Sequence record: OZ413489.1
Length of the DNA: 64,000 bases
Direction: 5' to 3' (one strand)
Source: a phage
Positions 401 to 62,634 of the stretch are shown here, in pieces. How positions within the stretch are numbered: position 1 is the first letter of the stretch; every line of letters starts with the position of its first letter. A model generated the notes under the pieces. That model was not told the DNA's origin. It was given only the letters and a program-made list of their open reading frames with translations, and made no database searches. Made by a program: the position numbers and the translations under genes.

Positions 401-684
401 GAGTTGCCACACTGTTTATTGCGTGCTTGTTATTATGTGGGTGTGCAACCAGCGTTGAGAGAGAATACAAGATTGACCCTCCGGATGTAGGAAGGTTGAT
501 TGTTAAACCCCCAGAAGGTGCCATGAAACCACCTGCTAAAGCTATGCCTTTGAAGAAAGGTGCGCCAGATGCAGTGAATTCTGGCATTATGAGGGATAAT
601 AATCTGTCTTGTAGCAATGATAGAGCTAAATTGATCATTTTGCAAGACTATATTAGAACACTTTTTCCAAAGGAGAGAGGTTAA
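397..684 (+). CDS. o-spanin (Rz1-like outer-membrane lipoprotein)
   Basis: 95 aa; signal peptide with lipobox-like LLLCGC; Pro-rich mature part; AGGAGG 5 nt upstream; stop overlaps terminase start (TAATG). Confidence 0.5.
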   Translation: MRVATLFIACLLLCGCATSVEREYKIDPPDVGRLIVKPPEGAMKPPAKAMPLKKGAPDAVNSGIMRDNNLSCSNDRAKLIILQDYIRTLFPKERG

Positions 685-1109
685 TGTCTAAGATTTACGG
701 ACCGTGTTCTGAAAAGCAGAAGATGATCCTAGAAAACGATGCAGATATTTTGGTAATCGGCGGTGCCGCAGGGTCTGGCAAGTCGTTCCTCTTGCAATTG
801 ATGCCACTTAAAATTATTGATGACCCCCACAGCTCTGTGGTTATGTTCCGAAGAACAACCCCACAGTTGGAAGGTGAGGGTGGATTATGGCCTAAAGCAG
901 TAGCTATTTATAGTGATCTGCCTGAAAACATTAAGCCAAAGTTTAGAGAGAAGGATCATAAGTTCATTTTTCCACGGTTTGATCCGAACACTGGCAAGTG
1001 GGATAGAAGCAAAAAGGGAGCTGTTGTAAAATACTGCCACATGGAGTATGTACAAGATAAGCTTAACCATCAGGGGCTTGAGTACACCATGGTTTGCTTC
1101 GATGAGGGT
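684..1109 (+). CDS. terL: terminase large subunit, exon 1 (ATPase N-terminal part)
   Basis: Walker A GGAAGSGKS and Walker B-like MVCFDE; frame closes with UAA at 1110-1112, which is the first codon of a group I intron. Confidence 0.8.
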
Positions 1110-1428
1110 TAATTTGTAGCTCTCGTAAAACCTCCCTAATTGCGGGGAAATCTTTATTATTGACACCACCAACCTGTCATGGTAACATGACAGAGGCTTC
1201 GAAGAGAGATCGAAGGTATGGTAACAGTGTGTTAATTTAGATAATCCGCAGCGAAGCATCCGAGAGGATGAACGTTCAACGACTAGTCGAAAGACGTAGA
1301 ATCAAGCGATTCGAAACGGGAGGGTAAGCGGTTGTTGTCGCTTATAAGATATAGTCTGGTCTGCATGGAGACATGCAGCTGCCTGAAAATGGCGGGGCAA
1401 GACTAGCGACCTTGCCCGAACATAAACG
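1110..1428 (+). ncRNA. group I intron 1 (ORF-less, self-splicing type)
   Basis: Core elements in order: P AATTGCGGGGAAA 1138-1150, Q AATCCGCAGC 1243-1252, R GTTCAACGACTAGTC 1274-1288, S AAGATATAGTC 1347-1356; GNRA-capped P9 hairpin 1361-1378; 7-bp P1 between exon 1103-1109 (UGAGGGU) and guide GCUCUCG 1119-1125 with U1109/G1119 wobble; 3' end at G1428 chosen by frame and by tail GAACAUAAACG shared with intron 2; alternative 3' sites 1443, 1446, 1449, 1461. Confidence 0.7.
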
Positions 1429-1745
1429 ACACAATTCGAATGGGAGCAGATAGACTATCTGATGTCTCGTCTGCGATCTCAGTCAAAGTATCCATCAAGA
1501 ATGGTTATCAGCTGTAACCCAGATTCAGAACACATGCTTGCCAAACTGGTTAGATGGTGGTTGGACGATGAAGGGTATCCAGATCCGGAGAAATGCGGTA
1601 AGAAAAGATATTTTATCCGACGCGACGGTGAATTTATCTGGGGAGACTCTAAAGAAGAGTTGATAGAGAAATACACCACGGTTAACGGACTGGGTGTGGA
1701 GATCAAGCCAAGACCGTTGTCATTCTCGTTCATAGGCGCAACCAT
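1429..1745 (+). CDS. terL: terminase large subunit, exon 2
   Basis: In frame with exon 1 when joined at 1109/1429; gives ...VCFDEG/TQFEWEQIDYLMSRLRSQSKYPSRMVISCNPD..., with DE-to-P spacing matching T4-type terminases (recollection); ends in a split codon AU at 1745. Confidence 0.6.
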
Positions 1746-2013
1746 TAAATAATAGTGGCTTCGTGCAGAAATGCACGTCGAATAACTTCGTTAATTGCTG
1801 GAAAATCCGATTGCTAAACGGACAATCAGCAGCCAAGCCTGAATATTCAGGAAGGTTCAACGACTATCCCGAGAGGGAGTAGGGCGCAAGCTTATGGCGC
1901 TCGAAAAGCGAAGCACCCTGAAAGGGGTGGTGATATAGTCTACTCTGCATGGTAACATGCAGCAGCACGTAATGGTGCGGAGGGTGGTGTTGCGACCACC
2001 TTTGAATATAAGG
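1746..2013 (+). ncRNA. group I intron 2 (ORF-less, paralogous to intron 1)
   Basis: P AATTGCTGGAAA 1793-1804, Q AATCAGCAGC 1824-1833, R GTTCAACGACTA 1855-1866, S GATATAGTC 1932-1940; GAAA-capped hairpin 1762-1777; P9 hairpin 1945-1962 (GUAA loop); 4-bp P1 exon CCAU 1742-1745 with GUGG 1755-1758; 3' end G2013 after tail GAAUAUAAGG; alternative 3' site G2031. Confidence 0.65.
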
Positions 2014-2818
2014 ATTCGATAATCCTGTCTGTTTGAGAGACAACCCAGAATACCTTGCTTTCCTTGAAGGTCTGCCGGAACTGGAAAAAGCTCAGCTTCT
2101 TCATGGTAACTGGTTTGCAAAGCCTGAGGGTGCAAACTATTTTCAAAGATCTTTCCTTCGTGATGCCGATAGAGTACCCCTTGGATCAGTATCTTGCAGG
2201 GCATGGGATAAGGCAGGAACCGAGAGAACTTCCGGTAATAAATTTCCTGACTTTACCGCCAGTATTAAGGTAAGTAAAGATAGCGACGGCTTTTATTACC
2301 TGTCCGGTGATTATTGTCCTGAGAACGTGGATGACGGGAGGTATTCCACAGGTCTGGAAGGCAAGTTCTGTAAAAAGGCTGGTGAACGAGATGTGATCAT
2401 CAGGAAACAGGCGCAGTTCGATGGTGATGATTGCATAATCGTCTTCTCTGTGGACCCAGGTCAGGCAGGTAAGAGTGAGTTCTTAACCTCATCCAGATCC
2501 TTGCTCGCCGAAGGGTTCAGGGTTGAAGAAGACCCAATGCCTTCCAACAAATCTAAACTGACAAGGTTCTCACCTTTTGCCAATCTTGCACAACAAGGAA
2601 TGGTGAGGATTGTAAAATCCAGTTTCCATCCTGATACTCTGGAAGCATTTCTGACTGAACTTGAAAAATTCAACGGGGAAAGATCAACATTTAACAGAAA
2701 AGACGACTGGGCCGACTGTGTAGCTTCTGCGATTAATTTCCTAGAGAAAGAGGAGGTAGCACTTCCTTGTGTGATTCCATCAATCTCATCACCTTCTATG
2801 TTCAAGCGTTTTATCTAA
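2014..2818 (+). CDS. terL: terminase large subunit, exon 3 (C-terminal nuclease-domain region)
   Basis: Joined 1745/2014 the codon AU+A reads Ile and continues FDNPVCLRDNPEYLAFLEGL...; spliced product about 515 aa; stop 2816-2818. Confidence 0.6.
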
Positions 2819-22841: not shown

Positions 22842-25800
22842 ATGGCTGATATTAAAGTTGTCAGAATTGAATCTCTTCCTGCCACTACCGCAGTGACAGA
22901 GGATGATTACCTGGTTGTTCAACAACCAGACCTGACCCGTCGTGTAAAAATTGGCGATGTTGTCCATGTGGATGGGACTGTTTCTCATGTAATCTCCTTT
23001 AAGGAAGGTGGTAAGTTAAACGGCCCAATGGATTTTGCCTACTTCGAAGAGGAAGACCTCTACCTGCGTTGGAAAGGCGAATTTCCACACACTGTTCCTG
23101 CACTATCTTCACCGTACGCTGATGGTGGGATTACTGACGCTGCATGGATGGTATATACAGATCCGTCCTTAAGGGAGGAGCTGGAATCTACCATTGGCGC
23201 ATCTATGATCATGACAGCCGAAGGGCAGTCTGTCCAGGATGTAATGGATGTTACTGTTCAGACAGCTAACGATGCTAAAGCACTTGCACAGCGTGTAGAT
23301 TTTGGTACGGTGCACACTGTAGGTGATGTTATTCACCTTGATAACTTTGTGGGTCCTGCAGTTATTGAAGAGGGAAGAACTACCAACTACCCTTCTGTAG
23401 CAGCTGGTGAAAAATTTCTGAACGGTGTGGTATCTCGTCGTGATACTACAACTGTTGATGGTATTTTCCGTGGCGCTACCACCGGAGCCATGTACACCAT
23501 TGCAGTAACCAACGGTGTAGCAACAACGAAAAGAATAGCACTTCGTGATGAATTTAAACGCCTAGAGGCAAACAACCCAACAAGAACAGTTATCCGTGCT
23601 GGAGATGATTTAAATACGGCAGGGTACTTGCAGCTTGATGCAACAGGCCGTTGGGGTATGTGGAACCAACAAACAGCTTCGTGGCAACCTCTTGCTATAG
23701 AGCAAGGCGGCACAGGGGCTAGAGATGCCGCTGGAGTCCGTATCAATATCGGTGCTTTCTATAAGCAACGTGCAGCCCTTGAGCCAAATTTCAATATCAA
23801 TAACTTGACTGGTAATCAGGATGGTGTATACTACCAGCCAATGACTGCTTATGCAACTGAGGCAAATGGTTACCCTGCAGGTTCTGGTGCTGGTCACTTG
23901 ATTGTTTGGCAGAACAATGCTAACGGAGGTACAGGTTGTCGTCAGGAATACTATCCATTCTCTAACGTAGATGTTTGGTATTTGAGAACCTATCAGGCCA
24001 ACACAAATCAGTGGACTGCATGGCAGCCGATGGTCAGACCTCGTAACGATGATACCTTTAGATCGCACATCGGTCTCGGGTCTAGAAATACCCCTACCTT
24101 CGGGCACCTTTACCTGTCTCAAAGCACTTCTGAGGTTAAGTTGCCATCAGGTATTCTCCATGGGGATAAATACGGCGCTGACGGTGCCCTTGAGCATGGG
24201 TATAGGATCTACTCTGAGGTAAGAAACGACAATAAGGCTTGGCTGACAATCCACCTGCACAAAGGTGCAAAAGGATCTGAAACTCATAAATATTTAGGTT
24301 TCCGCGAAGACGGCGTATTAGACTGCCCTAAATATATGCAGGTTGGGGATCTTACTGGTCAGCTGACAAACTGGGGACTTGGAGAATGGATTCGTAGTTC
24401 AGGAGCAGAAAGAGGCTTCTGGGGGTCCAAGAAAGCCGCCAAGATGGTTATCTGGGATGGTGGGATGGACGAATCCGGTAACGGCACTCTGGAATGGGGT
24501 GTTTATAACAACCGGAAGGCCAAGTGGGAACCTCTACCTCAAGCCGCAGGTGGCACTGGGGCTACAACTTTAGCAGATGCTCAGAATCTGTTCAAAGTTC
24601 CTGTAGCGGCAGGCGTAAAAGACTTCTTAATACTGCCAAGAACTGCAGGAATGGAAGATGGGAAATACTACCCAATCATCGTTAGAACAGATCCGTATTA
24701 CGCCCCTTCGACAGGTACAGATATTACCATAGTCACCAGGTCTTCATCTGGAAATGACCCTATGAACTGTGCCACCCTGCAGTGTCACTATAGAACTGGC
24801 GGCTGGACGGACAGGGGAGACTCTTTCTACGGGGTAGTAAATTTCTACCAGAATGAAAAAGCACTTCTTGGGATGATTGCTCCAACAAGGGGTAAACAAG
24901 AGTATGTTGCTTTCTATGTGGAGGCTCGTGCTTTCCCTGTCAGCATATACGCAAGTAGAAATGTTGTCGAAGTGTTTACCAGAGAGCAAGATTACCAGGT
25001 TGGGACTGTAACAGACAATCAGAATGGGGTTAAGTTCGTTGCACCTCTTCAGTCAGCAGATTTGAATCTTGCTATTCTTGGAGATAACAACACCAATACC
25101 AGACCTATTGTCGACTTCAAAGGTACTTCAGGGTTCTACACTGGGGGCGGCACACAGTGGCACTATATAGGCACTGCTGAACGCTATGCTGTGATGAGCA
25201 AAATGAATATGCCAAAAGTCGAGCTATGGGCAGACGGTCTTGACTATTTGTGCTACGGCAGTCCTAGAAAGGCGTTATTCTCTAATGCAGGATTCCAGTG
25301 TGCATCCGATGGGACAGAGGATCTGACTAACGGTACGTTTACCTCTAAATGCGGTAATGGTGCTGGTCTCAAAGGTCAGGCAGAGTTCAGATCTACTCCA
25401 GAGGCTGGTCAAGTTATTGTTCGTGATGTTGTAGGTTCTGCTCACAGATTCTACAACTTCAACAAAGATGGCACTTTCTCAGCTCCTGGTGGTTTTGTAT
25501 GCCACACAGGTGCAGACTGGAACAACCAGTTCGGGAATAACAACCCTTCTAAAATAATGGCTGGTAACGTCAACGGACCTGAAGGTTCCATGGTTGTAGC
25601 AGGGTTGTCGGTTGGTTTTTCTGGAAACTACGCTTTCCAGATGGCAGGTCGTTTAGACCAGCTGTATACTCGTTCCATAGAGCAGGGAAACCACAGAGCG
25701 TGGAACAAAGTTATTCAGCACCGTGGTCAAGGGTTGGGAACTAATGACCTTAACGACTACAAGGCAGATCGTGAAGGGATTTACCATCAAGAGGCAAATG

Positions 25801-27281
25801 CCAACGCCACAGCGGAAAGAAATTACCCACCAGGACAGCAGATGGCTGGTACGCTGATCGTTCTTAGAAACTCCGCTAACGAAGGAACAGGTTGTATCCA
25901 GATATATAAAATGTATCTTGGTGGAACATGGGAAAGGTATTACAATAACCTTGGCAGCGGAATGGCTTGGAGTCCTTGGAAGAGAACAAGCTTCCCAGAA
26001 AACACAACTGCTCCAGTTATGCCTGACTTGTGGTTGCCTTTAACCTCTAACCTAAAACCTGCATTGGGTGAAGGTGAGATGGTCTTCTCCAGACCTTCCA
26101 CAGCAACCTATTTCACTAAGCGGGGTGTTATGGCTGTTGCACAAGCAAACCAACCACGTTTTGAAAGAGATGGGTTGCTTATCGAGGGGCAAAGGACAAA
26201 CCTCATGCTCAACAGTGAGGACCCAAGCAAGTGGGGTGCACAGCAAGCGATTACTGTCGGTAGCACTGTAACAAATACTAACGGCACAAAAGGTGCAAGA
26301 TTTACAGTAAACACCGCATCCGGTGTAGAAACAACAGCGTTAAACCTTGCCACTGTTCCAGCCACTAGGGGTGCCGATGTGACAGGTGCTGAGAAATTCT
26401 GTACTGGGTCTATTATTGCAAGGGGAGGTAAAGCGAACCAGAGATTACGTGTAAGATTCGACATGTATGACGGATCCACCACAGTATTCCAAGGTGACGC
26501 TTATGTTAACCTGTCAACACTTGAAGTTAAAACAACAGGGGATGCAGCTGGGAGAATTAAAGTAAAAGCTGAGAGATGGCAAACAGCCGGACCTGCTTGG
26601 GTAAGGATTGCCGCTACGTTTGAGGCAGCGGCCTCTGACAAGAATATCGGTTGCCAGTTCCAGATTGCCCCGCCGGAGAGTTCTCAACATGCCGTAGGGG
26701 ATTGGGTTGACGTTGCAATACCTCAGTTTGAGTTGGGATCTTGTGAGTCCTCGTTTATCCCTACAGGGTCTTCACCTGTAACCAGGGCGGCAGATCTTTG
26801 TAAATTCCCAATGACGGATAACCTAGCGCCCAGACCATTCACTATCGCCGCTACGGTTGATGCCAACTGGAGAGGCTGGGGCAAAGCTCCTAACGCAGCC
26901 CCTAGGGTTATTGATACAGAGGGTCATCAATCCGGTGCTTTATTTATCATGGGGTTTGGCTCTGCAACAAATATTGCGGAGGACGGTTATCCATACTGTG
27001 ATATTGGAGGGTCAAACAGACGTGTTTACGAGATGGCTAAAGCCCGTAAATTGAAAATTGGGTTCAGGATAAAAGGGGACGGTAAAACATGCTCTTTTGC
27101 TAACGGATTGGTAAGTACGGAAACACAGTCTTCTTGGGAGTTCCTGGCAGGAGGCGCTTTCCTCCGCATTGGTGGTCAAACGGCGACAGGTGAAAGACAC
27201 CTATTTGGTCATATTAAGGACATAAGAGTTTGGAACTCTGCGTTGACAGATACTCAACTCATGATGGAGAGTGTTGAATAA
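22842..27281 (+). CDS. long tail fibre protein
   Basis: 1479 aa; fibre anchor-like N-terminus; two GGTGA motifs; duplicated about 60-aa module; C-terminal lectin/LamG-like segment (recollection). Confidence 0.5.
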   Translation: MADIKVVRIESLPATTAVTEDDYLVVQQPDLTRRVKIGDVVHVDGTVSHVISFKEGGKLNGPMDFAYFEEEDLYLRWKGEFPHTVPALSSPYADGGITDAAWMVYTDPSLREELESTIGASMIMTAEGQSVQDVMDVTVQTANDAKALAQRVDFGTVHTVGDVIHLDNFVGPAVIEEGRTTNYPSVAAGEKFLNGVVSRRDTTTVDGIFRGATTGAMYTIAVTNGVATTKRIALRDEFKRLEANNPTRTVIRAGDDLNTAGYLQLDATGRWGMWNQQTASWQPLAIEQGGTGARDAAGVRINIGAFYKQRAALEPNFNINNLTGNQDGVYYQPMTAYATEANGYPAGSGAGHLIVWQNNANGGTGCRQEYYPFSNVDVWYLRTYQANTNQWTAWQPMVRPRNDDTFRSHIGLGSRNTPTFGHLYLSQSTSEVKLPSGILHGDKYGADGALEHGYRIYSEVRNDNKAWLTIHLHKGAKGSETHKYLGFREDGVLDCPKYMQVGDLTGQLTNWGLGEWIRSSGAERGFWGSKKAAKMVIWDGGMDESGNGTLEWGVYNNRKAKWEPLPQAAGGTGATTLADAQNLFKVPVAAGVKDFLILPRTAGMEDGKYYPIIVRTDPYYAPSTGTDITIVTRSSSGNDPMNCATLQCHYRTGGWTDRGDSFYGVVNFYQNEKALLGMIAPTRGKQEYVAFYVEARAFPVSIYASRNVVEVFTREQDYQVGTVTDNQNGVKFVAPLQSADLNLAILGDNNTNTRPIVDFKGTSGFYTGGGTQWHYIGTAERYAVMSKMNMPKVELWADGLDYLCYGSPRKALFSNAGFQCASDGTEDLTNGTFTSKCGNGAGLKGQAEFRSTPEAGQVIVRDVVGSAHRFYNFNKDGTFSAPGGFVCHTGADWNNQFGNNNPSKIMAGNVNGPEGSMVVAGLSVGFSGNYAFQMAGRLDQLYTRSIEQGNHRAWNKVIQHRGQGLGTNDLNDYKADREGIYHQEANANATAERNYPPGQQMAGTLIVLRNSANEGTGCIQIYKMYLGGTWERYYNNLGSGMAWSPWKRTSFPENTTAPVMPDLWLPLTSNLKPALGEGEMVFSRPSTATYFTKRGVMAVAQANQPRFERDGLLIEGQRTNLMLNSEDPSKWGAQQAITVGSTVTNTNGTKGARFTVNTASGVETTALNLATVPATRGADVTGAEKFCTGSIIARGGKANQRLRVRFDMYDGSTTVFQGDAYVNLSTLEVKTTGDAAGRIKVKAERWQTAGPAWVRIAATFEAAASDKNIGCQFQIAPPESSQHAVGDWVDVAIPQFELGSCESSFIPTGSSPVTRAADLCKFPMTDNLAPRPFTIAATVDANWRGWGKAPNAAPRVIDTEGHQSGALFIMGFGSATNIAEDGYPYCDIGGSNRRVYEMAKARKLKIGFRIKGDGKTCSFANGLVSTETQSSWEFLAGGAFLRIGGQTATGERHLFGHIKDIRVWNSALTDTQLMMESVE

Positions 27282-27613
27282 TGAATATTTTTACCCTTGG
27301 ATTCACTGACAGGGAGGACTTTAACGGTTTCATGGATGAAATCGGCTTTTATGAGAATGAGGTGTTGCAAAACACCCTTCTTGTAGAGGTTGTCGGGTTC
27401 ATTTACACAGAGACTGGAGACACTTATGAGGCCGAAGATGAGTTTGGCAACATGGTTGTCTACCCAGTTTGCGAGAAAAGTGAATTGTTTTATGTTAACG
27501 TTCTGGCTCTAAACGGGGATGCAGAAAACATCATCTCTAAAAGCGGAAAAGTTGTAGATCCGATAAGGTTGAACATGTTCGACCCATCAGTATCCACCTT
27601 GGAAGCACTTTAA
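27281..27613 (+). CDS. small acidic protein, candidate fibre chaperone
   Basis: 110 aa; start overlaps fibre stop (TAATG). Confidence 0.3.
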   Translation: MNIFTLGFTDREDFNGFMDEIGFYENEVLQNTLLVEVVGFIYTETGDTYEAEDEFGNMVVYPVCEKSELFYVNVLALNGDAENIISKSGKVVDPIRLNMFDPSVSTLEAL

Positions 27614-27620
27614 AGTATTG

Positions 27621-59520: not shown

Positions 59521-60021
59521 GTGAAAATTAAGATCTTTGCTATTATTTTGAGCGCATTTTTATCGCTGCCTGTTGTTGCAGCACCAAAACAAAAAGTATA
59601 CCATACTTGCAAGCCATCAGATACTAAGGAAAACATTCTAGCATGCAATATCTACAGGGAAGCTAGAGGGGATGGCACGATGGGTATGCTGGCATCTGGG
59701 TTTGCCACCCTAAACAGGAAATCTCACCCCAAATACCCAGACACCATAAGAAAGATTGTCTACCAACCTAACCAGTTTTCGTGGACAAACCACGGCAAAA
59801 CTTTTAAGGTGACAGAAAAAGATTCATGGGATCACGCTAAAAGTCTTGCAAAGATGCTTCTAAAGGTCTATAATAACAACCATGTTGCATACATGGCTAT
59901 GGACATAACAGGTGGAGCAACACACTACCATACAACCAAAGTACGACCGAAATGGGCAAAAAAGATGCAGAGGACAGCTCAATTCGGGAGTCATATCTAC
60001 TACAAGGAGCGCAATAAATGA
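59521..60021 (+). CDS. secreted cell wall hydrolase (SleB-like)
   Basis: 166 aa; GTG start with GGAG RBS; cleavable signal peptide MKIKIFAIILSAFLSLPVVAAP; CNIYREARGDGTMGMLASGFATLNRK...YQPNQFSWTN matches the SleB/Hydrolase_2 pattern. Confidence 0.5.
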   Translation: MKIKIFAIILSAFLSLPVVAAPKQKVYHTCKPSDTKENILACNIYREARGDGTMGMLASGFATLNRKSHPKYPDTIRKIVYQPNQFSWTNHGKTFKVTEKDSWDHAKSLAKMLLKVYNNNHVAYMAMDITGGATHYHTTKVRPKWAKKMQRTAQFGSHIYYKERNK

Positions 60022-60563
60022 TTGTAAACAGTAATGAAACTAAAGCAGTACTAACCGGAAATATGGAGGTCACCAGGGGCTCAATTTCTCTGAACAAAGA
60101 GACTTTTGGGCTAATCATTAAAGGGATTTACGAAGATAAGGTGCTGGCAAGCTGCCGTGAACCAATCTTCAATGCTGTGGACTCTCATGTTGAGTCTGGA
60201 CGGGGTGATGTACCGATCATCATTCACTCCCCTACAGACCTTGAACCATACTTCTTTGTGCAGGACGTTGGATTGGGTATGTCAGAAGAGATGGTCCGCA
60301 ACACTTTCATGAACCTCGGGGAGTCAACCAAGCGCAACAGCAACGCTCTGGTAGGTAATAAAGGTGTAGGTTCAAAGGCCCCGTTCAGCATGGTTGACCC
60401 TGCAGATGTGGTTAGTGTGCCATACCAACACAATAGCGCCAAGTGCCGTGCATGCCGCTATGAGATTGTGGTAGCTCCGGAAGCACGCAAAGATGGAGAC
60501 CCTATTGAATATGTAGTTGATCGTGACGGTAACACTATCGACATTCTTTACGAGGAGGCGTAA
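60018..60563 (+). CDS. GHKL-type (Bergerat fold) ATPase domain protein
   Basis: 181 aa; N-box EPIFNAVD, G1 box DVGLGM, G2 box GNKGVGSKAPFS. Confidence 0.45.
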   Translation: MIVNSNETKAVLTGNMEVTRGSISLNKETFGLIIKGIYEDKVLASCREPIFNAVDSHVESGRGDVPIIIHSPTDLEPYFFVQDVGLGMSEEMVRNTFMNLGESTKRNSNALVGNKGVGSKAPFSMVDPADVVSVPYQHNSAKCRACRYEIVVAPEARKDGDPIEYVVDRDGNTIDILYEEA

Positions 60564-62271: not shown

Positions 62272-62331
62272 TAAGATGTGAGTATAAAGGGGAGGCACTC
62301 CTCCCCACAAAAACTAAGGAAGCACTAAACG

Positions 62332-62634
62332 ATGAAACGTTATAAACCATACACTTTTGAAATCGATTTCGAACTTGACGATATGTTTACTGTGGAAGCT
62401 CAGGCAGTAGTTCAGTTGCCAGATCCGGAGTGCCGGGATTCTGATGTTGACTGTTACGGATTTAGACAAATCACCGATGTGCATGTTTACCACAACGGTG
62501 AAGAGGTGGACTTCCACCAACTGCCAAACGATATGCGCCACTCAATTTACAAACGTGCAGCCCGTGAACTAGAGTCCTATCTGGATGCAGCGACGACAGC
62601 AGCTGCATTTGCTGAAGAAGTGGGAGGTTTCTGA
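62332..62634 (+). CDS. hypothetical protein
   Basis: 100 aa; AAGGAAG RBS. Confidence 0.3.
   Translation: MKRYKPYTFEIDFELDDMFTVEAQAVVQLPDPECRDSDVDCYGFRQITDVHVYHNGEEVDFHQLPNDMRHSIYKRAARELESYLDAATTAAAFAEEVGGF

What the first reader, a model, noticed from the sequence alone, without database searches (positions are those of the whole stretch)
684..2818. Large terminase gene split by two paralogous, ORF-less group I introns
Three in-frame terminase segments (Walker A/B in the first, ...RMVISCNPD in the second, C-terminal domain in the third) are separated by inserts of about 319 and 268 nt. Each insert carries the four group I core elements in canonical order (P AATTGCGGGGAAA / AATTGCTGGAAA, Q AATCCGCAGC / AATCAGCAGC, R GTTCAACGACTA, S GATATAGTC), a GNRA-capped P9 hairpin CTGCATG-GAGA/GTAA-CATGCAG and an exon-guide pairing that ends on a U-G wobble. 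An in-frame UAA sits at each exon-intron boundary, so the unspliced mRNA would give truncated protein. Neither insert has room for a homing endonuclease. Two related introns in one essential packaging gene suggest intron duplication or repeated homing, and splicing could gate terminase production.
Basis: partly seen in the sequence, partly recalled or inferred. Interest (0 to 1): 0.8.

Follow-up and report, generated by a model that had tools for sequence, protein, structure and literature searches.

The report
Two known introns in rV5-type terminase gene

Summary
The window is a Vequintavirus (rV5-like E. coli myovirus), 99.1% identical to phage RudolfGeigy. Both inserts pass the Rfam group I intron model (84 and 96 bits; E 6e-20 and 2e-23). 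The boundaries are exact: intron 1 = 1110-1428 (319 nt) and intron 2 = 1746-2013 (268 nt). Removing them gives a 1548-nt reading frame that lines up base for base with the uninterrupted terminase gene of sibling phage MaxTheCat (98% nt identity, 1 aa difference in 515). Both have a U·G 5' splice site, a terminal G, P1-P10, and the P7.1/P7.2 helices typical of T4 td-type (IA) phage introns.

It is already known. Kropinski et al. 2013 has a section 'Introns in terminase' for rV5, and the RudolfGeigy record annotates the same three-part join.

Two side claims fail or remain untested. The introns are not duplicates of each other: they score 25.6 bits against each other but 99-104 bits against introns of unrelated phages. 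Regulatory 'gating' has no support.

Both introns are optional within the genus. Sibling genomes have each site empty, ORF-less, or carrying a homing endonuclease (EndoVII-type in P8 of intron 1, HNH-type in P6 of intron 2). These are the ORF-less forms of ordinary mobile phage introns.

The parts
684..1109 (+). Terminase large subunit exon 1 (aa 1-142). It holds Walker A (GGAAGSGKS) and Walker B (MVCFDE) and ends ...DEG with GGU.
   Evidence: ORF list, splice reconstruction, Pfam Terminase_6N covering aa 25-294.
1110..1428 (+). Group I intron 1, 319 nt, no ORF. It starts with an in-frame UAA (1110-1112) and ends with omega-G at 1428.
   Evidence: Rfam RF00028 84 bits, E 6.4e-20. Exactly absent from MaxTheCat. 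66 records have an uninterrupted junction.
1104..1124 (+). Intron 1 P1: exon GAGGGU plus intron UA (1104-1111) paired with the internal guide UAGCUCUC (1117-1124). U1109·G1119 is the wobble at the 5' splice site. P10 is ACA (1429-1431) with UGU (1115-1117).
   Evidence: Complementarity checked by script: 8/8 and 3/3 pairs.
1131..1356 (+). Intron 1 catalytic core: P3 1131-1136/1318-1323; P4 1141-1146/1245-1250; P5 with extension hairpins 1151-1241 (including CUGUCAUG-GUAA-CAUGACAG at 1174-1193); P6/P6a 1251-1275; P7 1281-1285/1352-1356; P7.1 1286-1295; P7.2 1299-1312; P8 1325-1344.
   Evidence: All helices are fully paired. The layout agrees with the Rfam alignment.
1325..1344 (+). Intron 1 P8 mini-hairpin (UAAGCG-GUUGUUGU-CGCUUA). 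In relatives, window 1326-1343 is replaced by 582 nt holding an Endonuclease VII-type homing endonuclease ORF.
   Evidence: blastn break points against rV5_ev168 and HdK5, junction sequences, Pfam Endonuclease_7 2e-21.
1361..1417 (+). Intron 1 peripheral 3' helices: P9 1361-1378 (GAGA loop), P9.1 1379-1395, P9.2 1395-1417 (P9.1 and P9.2 as drawn both use G1395).
   Evidence: Script check: 7/7, 5/5 and 7/7 pairs.
1429..1745 (+). Terminase exon 2 (317 nt; ...TQFEWEQ...SRMVISCNPD...FIGAT-I).
1746..2013 (+). Group I intron 2, 268 nt, no ORF. In-frame UAA at 1750-1752; omega-G at 2013.
   Evidence: Rfam RF00028 96 bits, E 1.7e-23. Exactly absent from phages naam, ev168 and MaxTheCat. 93 records have an uninterrupted junction.
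1742..1758 (+). Intron 2 P1: CCAU (exon) plus UA paired with UAGUGG (1753-1758). U1745·G1755 is the wobble. P10 is AUU (2014-2016) with AAU (1751-1753).
   Evidence: Script check: 6/6 and 3/3 pairs.
1762..1940 (+). Intron 2 core: P2 1762-1777; P3 1786-1792/1907-1913; P4 1796-1801/1826-1831; P5 1806-1822; P6/P6a 1832-1856; P7 1862-1866/1936-1940; P7.1 1867-1878; P7.2 1883-1901; P8 1914-1929.
   Evidence: (all fully paired), Rfam alignment.
1834..1854 (+). Intron 2 P6a mini-hairpin region (stem 1838-1842/1847-1851). In rV5 and HdK5, window 1834-1854 is replaced by 732 nt holding an HNH homing endonuclease ORF.
   Evidence: blastn break points, junction sequences, Pfam HNH_3 1.7e-6 plus HTH, rV5 gp066 annotation.
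1945..2002 (+). Intron 2 P9 (1945-1962, GUAA loop), P9.1 1965-1978, P9.2 1981-2002.
2014..2818 (+). Terminase exon 3 (805 nt including the stop codon): ...(I)FDNPVCLRDNPEYL... and the RNaseH-like nuclease domain.
   Evidence: Pfam Terminase_6C at aa 394-489.

Best explanation
The region is the large terminase (TerL) gene of an rV5-like E. coli phage (Vequintavirus), interrupted by two independent group I self-splicing introns of the phage IA (T4 td-like) type. Inferred mechanism: after transcription each intron folds, P1 presents the U·G pair at the 5' splice site (U1109, U1745), a free guanosine bound in P7 attacks there, and the terminal G (G1428, G2013) then takes its place so that the exons are joined. 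The result is one 1548-nt reading frame for a 515-aa terminase. The stop codons just inside each intron halt ribosomes on unspliced RNA. Both introns are the ORF-less forms of mobile introns. In sibling phages the same introns, 98-99% identical elsewhere, carry a homing endonuclease gene in a terminal loop: EndoVII-type in P8 of intron 1 and HNH-type in P6 of intron 2. Each site is also found empty in the genus. The ORF-less copies most likely persist as near-neutral selfish passengers. They could spread by recombination in mixed infections or by endonuclease supplied in trans from a co-infecting relative. Shown here by computation: intron identity, boundaries, structure, collinearity with uninterrupted alleles, and population polymorphism. 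Inferred: actual splicing, and the mode of spread.
For: Rfam RF00028 scores 84 and 96 bits against a gathering score of 50, and these are the only hits in 64 kb. The spliced ORF has the same length as the uninterrupted MaxTheCat TerL, with 98.0% nt identity and 1/515 aa difference. Precise 268-nt absence in naam. Pfam Terminase_6N (6e-20) runs across both junctions, plus Terminase_6C. P1-P10, P7.1/P7.2 and P9.1/P9.2 are all fully paired in both introns, and 8 of 10 shared helices differ in sequence but keep pairing. The 3' part of intron 1 is 82% identical to the T4 td intron. Census: 66 records empty, 23 ORF-less and about 30 EndoVII-bearing at site 1; 93 empty and 9 ORF-less at site 2, the rest HNH-bearing. 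Endonuclease families and their insertion loops. The exon bases needed for P1 (U at site 1, C at site 2) are present in every intron-bearing allele and replaced synonymously in every empty allele, in 7 of 7 genomes. Public annotation as a 3-part join in RudolfGeigy and rV5. The rV5 paper has a section 'Introns in terminase' (PMC3606486). An HNH intron in TerL of the related Certrevirus CB7 splices in vivo by RT-PCR and Sanger sequencing (PMC7344957).
Against: No RNA data exist for this phage, so splicing is inferred and not observed. The CB7 precedent may not be the same intron or site: the only phiTE match I located was in nrdA, not TerL. Whether P7 carries a functional G-binding site cannot be judged from sequence alone. 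P1 of intron 2 is short, with 4 exon bp plus 2 intron bp. How ORF-less copies are maintained is not addressed by any data here.
Confidence: 0.95

Rival explanations
1. Regulatory gating: splicing efficiency of the two introns controls the timing or amount of terminase, so the introns serve the phage.
For: Stop codons lie at or near both 5' splice sites, so unspliced RNA gives only a truncated product. The stop in intron 2 is kept as UAA here and UGA in relatives.
Against: 66 and 93 public records of the same genus lack intron 1 and intron 2 respectively, and some lack both, yet they encode an essentially identical TerL. The introns are therefore dispensable. Stop codons early in the intron are a general feature of phage group I introns (own knowledge: T4 td). 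No regulatory signal was found.
Confidence: 0.05
2. Protective allele in phage-phage competition: the ORF-less introns are kept because they split the target sites of the EndoVII-type and HNH-type homing endonucleases carried by co-infecting relatives, protecting the essential terminase gene from cleavage.
For: Endonuclease-bearing versions of the same introns circulate in the same genus. Nearly all combinations of site states occur among genomes that are 97-99% identical. There is a published precedent for an intron endonuclease mediating interference between co-infecting phages (PMC11620839).
Against: This was not tested. The same pattern is expected from purely selfish gain and loss. Empty sites are the most common state (66 and 93 records), which argues against strong selection for occupancy.
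Confidence: 0.2
3. The two introns arose by duplication of one intron within the gene (paralogues).
For: They belong to the same subgroup, with identical R, S and P9 stem sequences.
Against: Outside the universally conserved core blocks they are unalignable: best 25.6 bits with default blastn, against 99-104 bits for each to introns in unrelated phages. With intron 2 as query, the RudolfGeigy record gave a single matching place, so intron 1 was not detected. They have different peripheral architecture (intron 1 lacks P2 and has a large P5 extension) and different associated endonuclease families and insertion loops.
Confidence: 0.05
4. Not introns: a degraded or split terminase gene giving three separate polypeptides, or an assembly artefact.
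For: Several public records naively call the segments as separate ORFs (naam, HdK5).
Against: Strong covariance-model hits, precise restoration of the frame, and the same structure in many independently sequenced genomes. TerL is essential.
Confidence: 0.01

Closest known systems
Terminase introns of Escherichia phage rV5 (ORF64ABC; Kropinski et al. 2013, Virol J 10:76, PMC3606486) and the RudolfGeigy annotation (MZ501102.1, bas52_0003, 3-part join)
   Same: Same gene, same two insertion sites, and 98-99% identical intron sequence. RudolfGeigy has both introns ORF-less at the same coordinates, offset by one base.
   Different: rV5 carries an HNH endonuclease ORF (gp066) in P6 of intron 2, and the window does not. 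The 2013 paper calls them introns (citing the LL-H group I intron) but gives no structure.
T4 td / nrdB / sunY group I introns (subgroup IA2)
   Same: Phage-borne, with P7.1/P7.2 between P7 and P3' and stop codons early in the intron. In ORF-bearing variants the endonuclease ORF sits in a peripheral loop. They are optional among close relatives. The 3' part of intron 1 is 82% identical to td over 79 nt.
   Different: Different host gene (packaging, not nucleotide metabolism). Both copies here are ORF-less. The associated endonucleases in relatives are EndoVII- and HNH-type.
[quoted passage not shown]
   Same: A group I intron interrupting a large terminase gene.
   Different: An unrelated siphovirus with a single intron. 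No sequence comparison was made here.
HNH-containing terminase intron of Pectobacterium phage CB7 (Certrevirus, Vequintavirinae; PMC7344957)
   Same: Same phage subfamily and same host gene. Splicing was shown in vivo by RT-PCR and Sanger sequencing.
   Different: It carries an endonuclease ORF. Whether the insertion site is homologous was not established (the phiTE match I examined was in nrdA).

Membership tests
Group I catalytic intron (Rfam RF00028) | Conserved core (P3-P8 with the P, Q, R, S elements) scoring above the curated covariance-model threshold | tested here: met
   84 and 96 bits against a gathering score of 50; E 6.4e-20 and 1.7e-23.
Group I catalytic intron (Rfam RF00028) | 5' splice site follows a U that forms a U·G wobble with the internal guide sequence in P1 | tested here: met
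   U1109·G1119 and U1745·G1755. Empty alleles have C at site 1 and lose a P1 pair at site 2.
Group I catalytic intron (Rfam RF00028) | Intron ends in G (omega-G), with P10 pairing to the 3' exon | tested here: met
   G1428 and G2013. P10 is 3/3 bp in both introns.
Group I catalytic intron (Rfam RF00028) | P7 helix (guanosine-binding site) forming a pseudoknot with P3 | tested here: inconclusive
   GACUA/UAGUC, 5/5 bp in both introns, in the correct topology. G-binding competence cannot be judged from sequence.
Group I catalytic intron (Rfam RF00028) | Precise excision restores the host reading frame | tested here: met
   The spliced ORF equals the uninterrupted MaxTheCat TerL in length (1548 nt), with 1/515 aa difference. 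This is a computational test only.
Group I catalytic intron (Rfam RF00028) | GTP-dependent self-splicing | not testable with these tools
   Needs in vitro transcription and splicing, or RT-PCR.
Subgroup IA (T4 td-like phage introns) | Extra helices P7.1 and P7.2 between the P7 5' strand and the P3 3' strand | tested here: met
   Intron 1: 1286-1295 and 1299-1312. Intron 2: 1867-1878 and 1883-1901. The definition of the subgroup is from my own knowledge (Michel & Westhof 1990).
Mobile (homing) group I intron | Encodes a homing endonuclease | tested here: not met
   No ORF of 60 aa or more lies on the + strand inside either intron. The endonuclease ORFs are present only in relatives. These copies cannot home autonomously.
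Terminase large subunit | N-terminal ATPase with Walker A and B motifs plus a C-terminal RNaseH-like nuclease | tested here: met
   Pfam Terminase_6N 6.2e-20 (aa 25-294) and Terminase_6C 5.1e-6 (aa 394-489) on the spliced product.

The most novel reading that the evidence does not exclude
The terminase gene of vequintaviruses may be a site of competition between co-infecting phages. The ORF-less introns in this window would then be kept as protective alleles, because they split the target sites of the EndoVII-type and HNH-type endonucleases carried by sibling phages. The near-complete mix of empty, ORF-less and ORF-bearing states at two sites in genomes that are 97-99% identical would make this a natural system for measuring the intron homing cycle and endonuclease-mediated interference.
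Probability: 0.2. Interest if true: 0.4.

Novelty: already known. Interest (0 to 1): 0.12.

Why it matters
For annotation it matters modestly. Many public vequintavirus records (for example naam and HdK5) still list the terminase as two or three separate ORFs, and the exact splice coordinates given here would correct them. Biologically it adds nothing new in kind: optional group I introns, with or without homing endonucleases, in conserved phage genes have been known since T4, and these particular introns were reported in 2013. The only mildly useful by-product is the census. It shows three states at each of two sites assorting almost freely among near-identical genomes, with exon-flank haplotypes that track intron presence. 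That would be a convenient system for studying homing and phage-phage interference.

Tried and rejected
(1) The MAFFT alignment of the two introns was unreliable in the 5' half, so I replaced it with local blastn and helix-by-helix comparison.
(2) A PDB sequence search with the spliced TerL gave no hit at E<=0.01, so no motif mapping to a solved terminase was possible.
(3) Rfam at gathering threshold misses or barely detects the ORF-bearing variants: rV5 and HdK5 intron 2 and HdK5 intron 1 were missed, and ev168 intron 1 scored 50.8 bits. This is expected with 580-730-nt loop insertions, so the model could not be used for the census and I used junction probes instead.
(4) I checked whether the intron-2-like match in Pectobacterium phiTE lies in TerL, which would link directly to the CB7 splicing experiment. 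It lies in nrdA.
(5) The terminase intron of Vibrio phage IBT_VpB-34 is at a different site, upstream of Walker B, so these insertion sites are not shared outside the genus in the samples examined.
(6) I looked for further introns, other RNA families and tRNAs in the 64 kb and found none.
(7) I considered and rejected the assembly-artefact and split-gene readings (see rival explanations).
Full report
WHAT THE WINDOW IS. The first 6 kb match 156 phage records. The best is Escherichia phage RudolfGeigy (MZ501102.1, Vequintavirus) at 99.1% over the full length, followed by rV5 at 99.0%. The 64 kb is mostly collinear with RudolfGeigy positions 1-66000. It runs through the spanins, large terminase, portal, head, tail and tail-fibre genes and then early genes.

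CHECKING THE OBSERVATION. Rfam's group I intron model (RF00028, gathering score 50) scores 84 bits (E 6.4e-20) at 1100-1378 and 96 bits (E 1.7e-23) at 1736-1962 on the + strand. Nothing else in the 64 kb matches any Rfam family, even at E<=0.1.

From the U·G pair that closes P1 and the terminal G, I placed intron 1 at 1110-1428 (319 nt) and intron 2 at 1746-2013 (268 nt). Joining 684-1109, 1429-1745 and 2014-2818 gives 1548 nt with no internal stop, encoding 515 aa. That protein matches Pfam Terminase_6N (6.2e-20) over aa 25-294, which spans both junctions, and Terminase_6C (5.1e-6). One wording correction: the three segments lie in three different genomic frames and become in-frame only after excision.

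NATURAL CONTROLS FOR THE BOUNDARIES.
- Phage MaxTheCat annotates an uninterrupted TerL CDS of exactly 1548 nt. Against my spliced sequence it aligns without gaps at 98.0% nt identity, with one amino-acid difference in 515.
- Phage naam lacks exactly the 268 nt of intron 2.
- Short probes spanning the predicted spliced junctions find 66 records with an uninterrupted exon1-exon2 junction and 93 with an uninterrupted exon2-exon3 junction.
The boundaries are therefore exact, and both introns are optional in the genus.

ANATOMY. Both introns have a full helix set, with every base pair verified by script.
- Intron 1: P1 1104-1111/1117-1124 (U1109·G1119), P10 1429-1431/1115-1117, P3, P4, a long P5 extension with GNRA-capped hairpins, P6/P6a, P7 1281-1285/1352-1356, P7.1, P7.2, P8 1325-1344, P9 1361-1378, P9.1, P9.2 and omega-G1428. 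It has no P2.
- Intron 2: P1 1742-1747/1753-1758 (U1745·G1755), P2 1762-1777, P3 through P9.2 and omega-G2013.
- Eight of the ten helices common to both differ in sequence yet are fully paired in each. Only P7 and P9 are identical.
- P7.1/P7.2 between P7 and P3' mark the IA type of phage intron, as in T4 td (definition from my own knowledge). Consistent with this, the 3' part of intron 1 is 82% identical to the td intron over 79 nt.
- In-frame stops lie at 1110-1112 and 1750-1752. In relatives the second is UGA instead of UAA, so it is still a stop.

ARE THE TWO INTRONS PARALOGUES? Only in the sense that they belong to the same class. With default blastn scoring they share at most 25.6 bits, a 16-nt stretch of the R element. 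With permissive scoring the best local match is 39/50 nt over S and P9. By contrast, intron 1 scores 104 bits against introns of phiKZ-like Pseudomonas phages, and intron 2 scores 99-102 bits against Bacillus SPR and phiNIT1 and 100 bits against an nrdD intron of vequintavirus HMD-6. With intron 2 as the query, the RudolfGeigy record gave a single matching place, so intron 1 was not detected. Duplication within the gene is not supported. Independent acquisition from the shared pool of phage IA introns is the better reading.

POPULATION PICTURE. Relatives carry homing-endonuclease ORFs in the same introns.
- In rV5_ev168 and HdK5, window 1326-1343 (the P8 loop of intron 1) is replaced by 582 nt encoding a 196-aa protein that matches Pfam Endonuclease_7 at 2e-21.
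- In rV5 and HdK5, window 1834-1854 (the P6a hairpin of intron 2) is replaced by 732 nt encoding a 231-aa HNH_3 + HTH protein.
- The rest of each intron stays 98-99% identical, but the whole hairpin, stem included, differs between ORF-less and ORF-bearing forms. This is a module swap, not a simple deletion scar.
- Probes specific to the compact hairpins find 23 records with ORF-less intron 1 and 9 vequintavirus records with ORF-less intron 2.
- With 53 records holding intron 1 at 80% coverage or more, roughly 30 carry the EndoVII ORF.
- Five public records have both introns ORF-less, as in this window: RudolfGeigy, JEP1, and three records labelled Campylobacter phage (A147, C11, A135).
- At least seven of the nine combinations of site states are seen among the sampled genomes.
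- In all seven genomes inspected, the exon bases that P1 needs are present when the intron is present (GGU at site 1, ACC at site 2) and are synonymously different when the site is empty (GGC...ACG CAG, and ACA).
- All 66 empty site-1 junction hits are 90-95% identical to the 48-nt probe; each of the 40 listed rows shows 93.8%, i.e. three mismatches. This is what co-conversion during homing, together with the splicing constraint, would produce.

WHAT IS ALREADY KNOWN.
- The RudolfGeigy record annotates TerL as a three-part join at 683..2817, which is the finding's coordinates shifted by one base.
- rV5 annotates ORF64ABC as a three-part join with HNH gp066 inside.
- Kropinski et al. 2013 has a section 'Introns in terminase', which states that the TerL gene is divided into three segments, one containing a homing endonuclease. 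The paper cites the LL-H terminase group I intron and thanks D. Shub for defining the intron location (PMC3606486).
- The BASEL collection paper says intron boundaries were set by comparative annotation (PMC8594841).
- In the same subfamily, an HNH intron in TerL of Pectobacterium phage CB7 was shown to splice in vivo by RT-PCR and Sanger sequencing (PMC7344957).
- I found no paper dedicated to the vequintavirus intron polymorphism.

MECHANISM AND RIVALS. The best explanation is ordinary group I self-splicing that restores TerL mRNA. These copies are ORF-less relatives of mobile introns, maintained as near-neutral passengers and perhaps mobilised in trans.
- Regulatory gating is unsupported, because most genomes of the genus lack one or both introns and encode the same protein.
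- A protective role against the endonucleases of co-infecting siblings is conceivable, with a precedent in PMC11620839, but it is untested.
- The split-gene and artefact readings are excluded.

VERDICT. The duplication claim is not supported and the gating claim is untested. The feature is already published and annotated, so interest is low.

Noticed in passing
window 60018-60563 (junction about 60389-60420): An in-frame fusion ORF of 181 aa joins rIIA aa 1-127 to rIIB aa 345-402 of RudolfGeigy. This is a ~2.62-kb deletion of most of rIIA and rIIB at a short patch of similarity (AGCATGGTgGAC / GTCATGGTtGAC). All 12 best relatives listed carry the extra ~2.65 kb. It resembles the classical T4 r1589 rIIA-rIIB fusion deletion (own knowledge).
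   Followed up: partly
window about 62327-62335: The window lacks the ~1.3-kb putative N6-adenine methyltransferase gene that RudolfGeigy has at 64269-65594. Some relatives have it and some do not.
   Followed up: partly
window 25643-27614: A stretch of about 2 kb inside a lateral tail fibre gene has no megablast match to RudolfGeigy, although the flanks are ~97% identical. It is probably a swapped receptor-binding module.
   Followed up: no
public records MG0656xx (e.g. MG065644.1, MG065652.1, MG065690.1): Records labelled 'Campylobacter phage' with host C. jejuni are 98% identical to E. coli rV5-like phages across this locus, so the host label looks doubtful.
   Followed up: no
window 1751 (intron 2): The in-frame stop just inside intron 2 is UAA here but UGA in RudolfGeigy, rV5 and HdK5. 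The stop is kept through a base change, and the P10 pair changes from U-A to U·G.
   Followed up: partly
relatives: HMD-6 PQ505080.1 34911-35042; phi92 FR775895.2 119741-119819; JEP1 MT740314.1: Other vequintavirus-like phages carry related group I introns in the anaerobic ribonucleotide reductase gene (nrdD). JEP1 and HMD-6 each have three places matching intron 1. No such intron lies within this 64-kb window.
   Followed up: no
PQ006092.1 'bajarodcaudo virus 1' 70670-70718: A 98.6-kb virus from pocket-mouse faeces matches the ORF-less P6 region of intron 2 at 87.8%. The same ORF-less intron form therefore occurs outside the E. coli vequintavirus records.
   Followed up: no
relatives L004 1326-1918 (rV5_ev168) and L002 1834-2565 (rV5): The EndoVII-type ORF starts inside the 5' strand of a long P8 stem and ends at the UAG within the conserved S element (GAUAUAG). 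The stop codon of the HNH ORF lies in the 3' strand of P6. Both endonuclease ORFs therefore overlap intron helices, which may couple their translation to intron folding.
   Followed up: no
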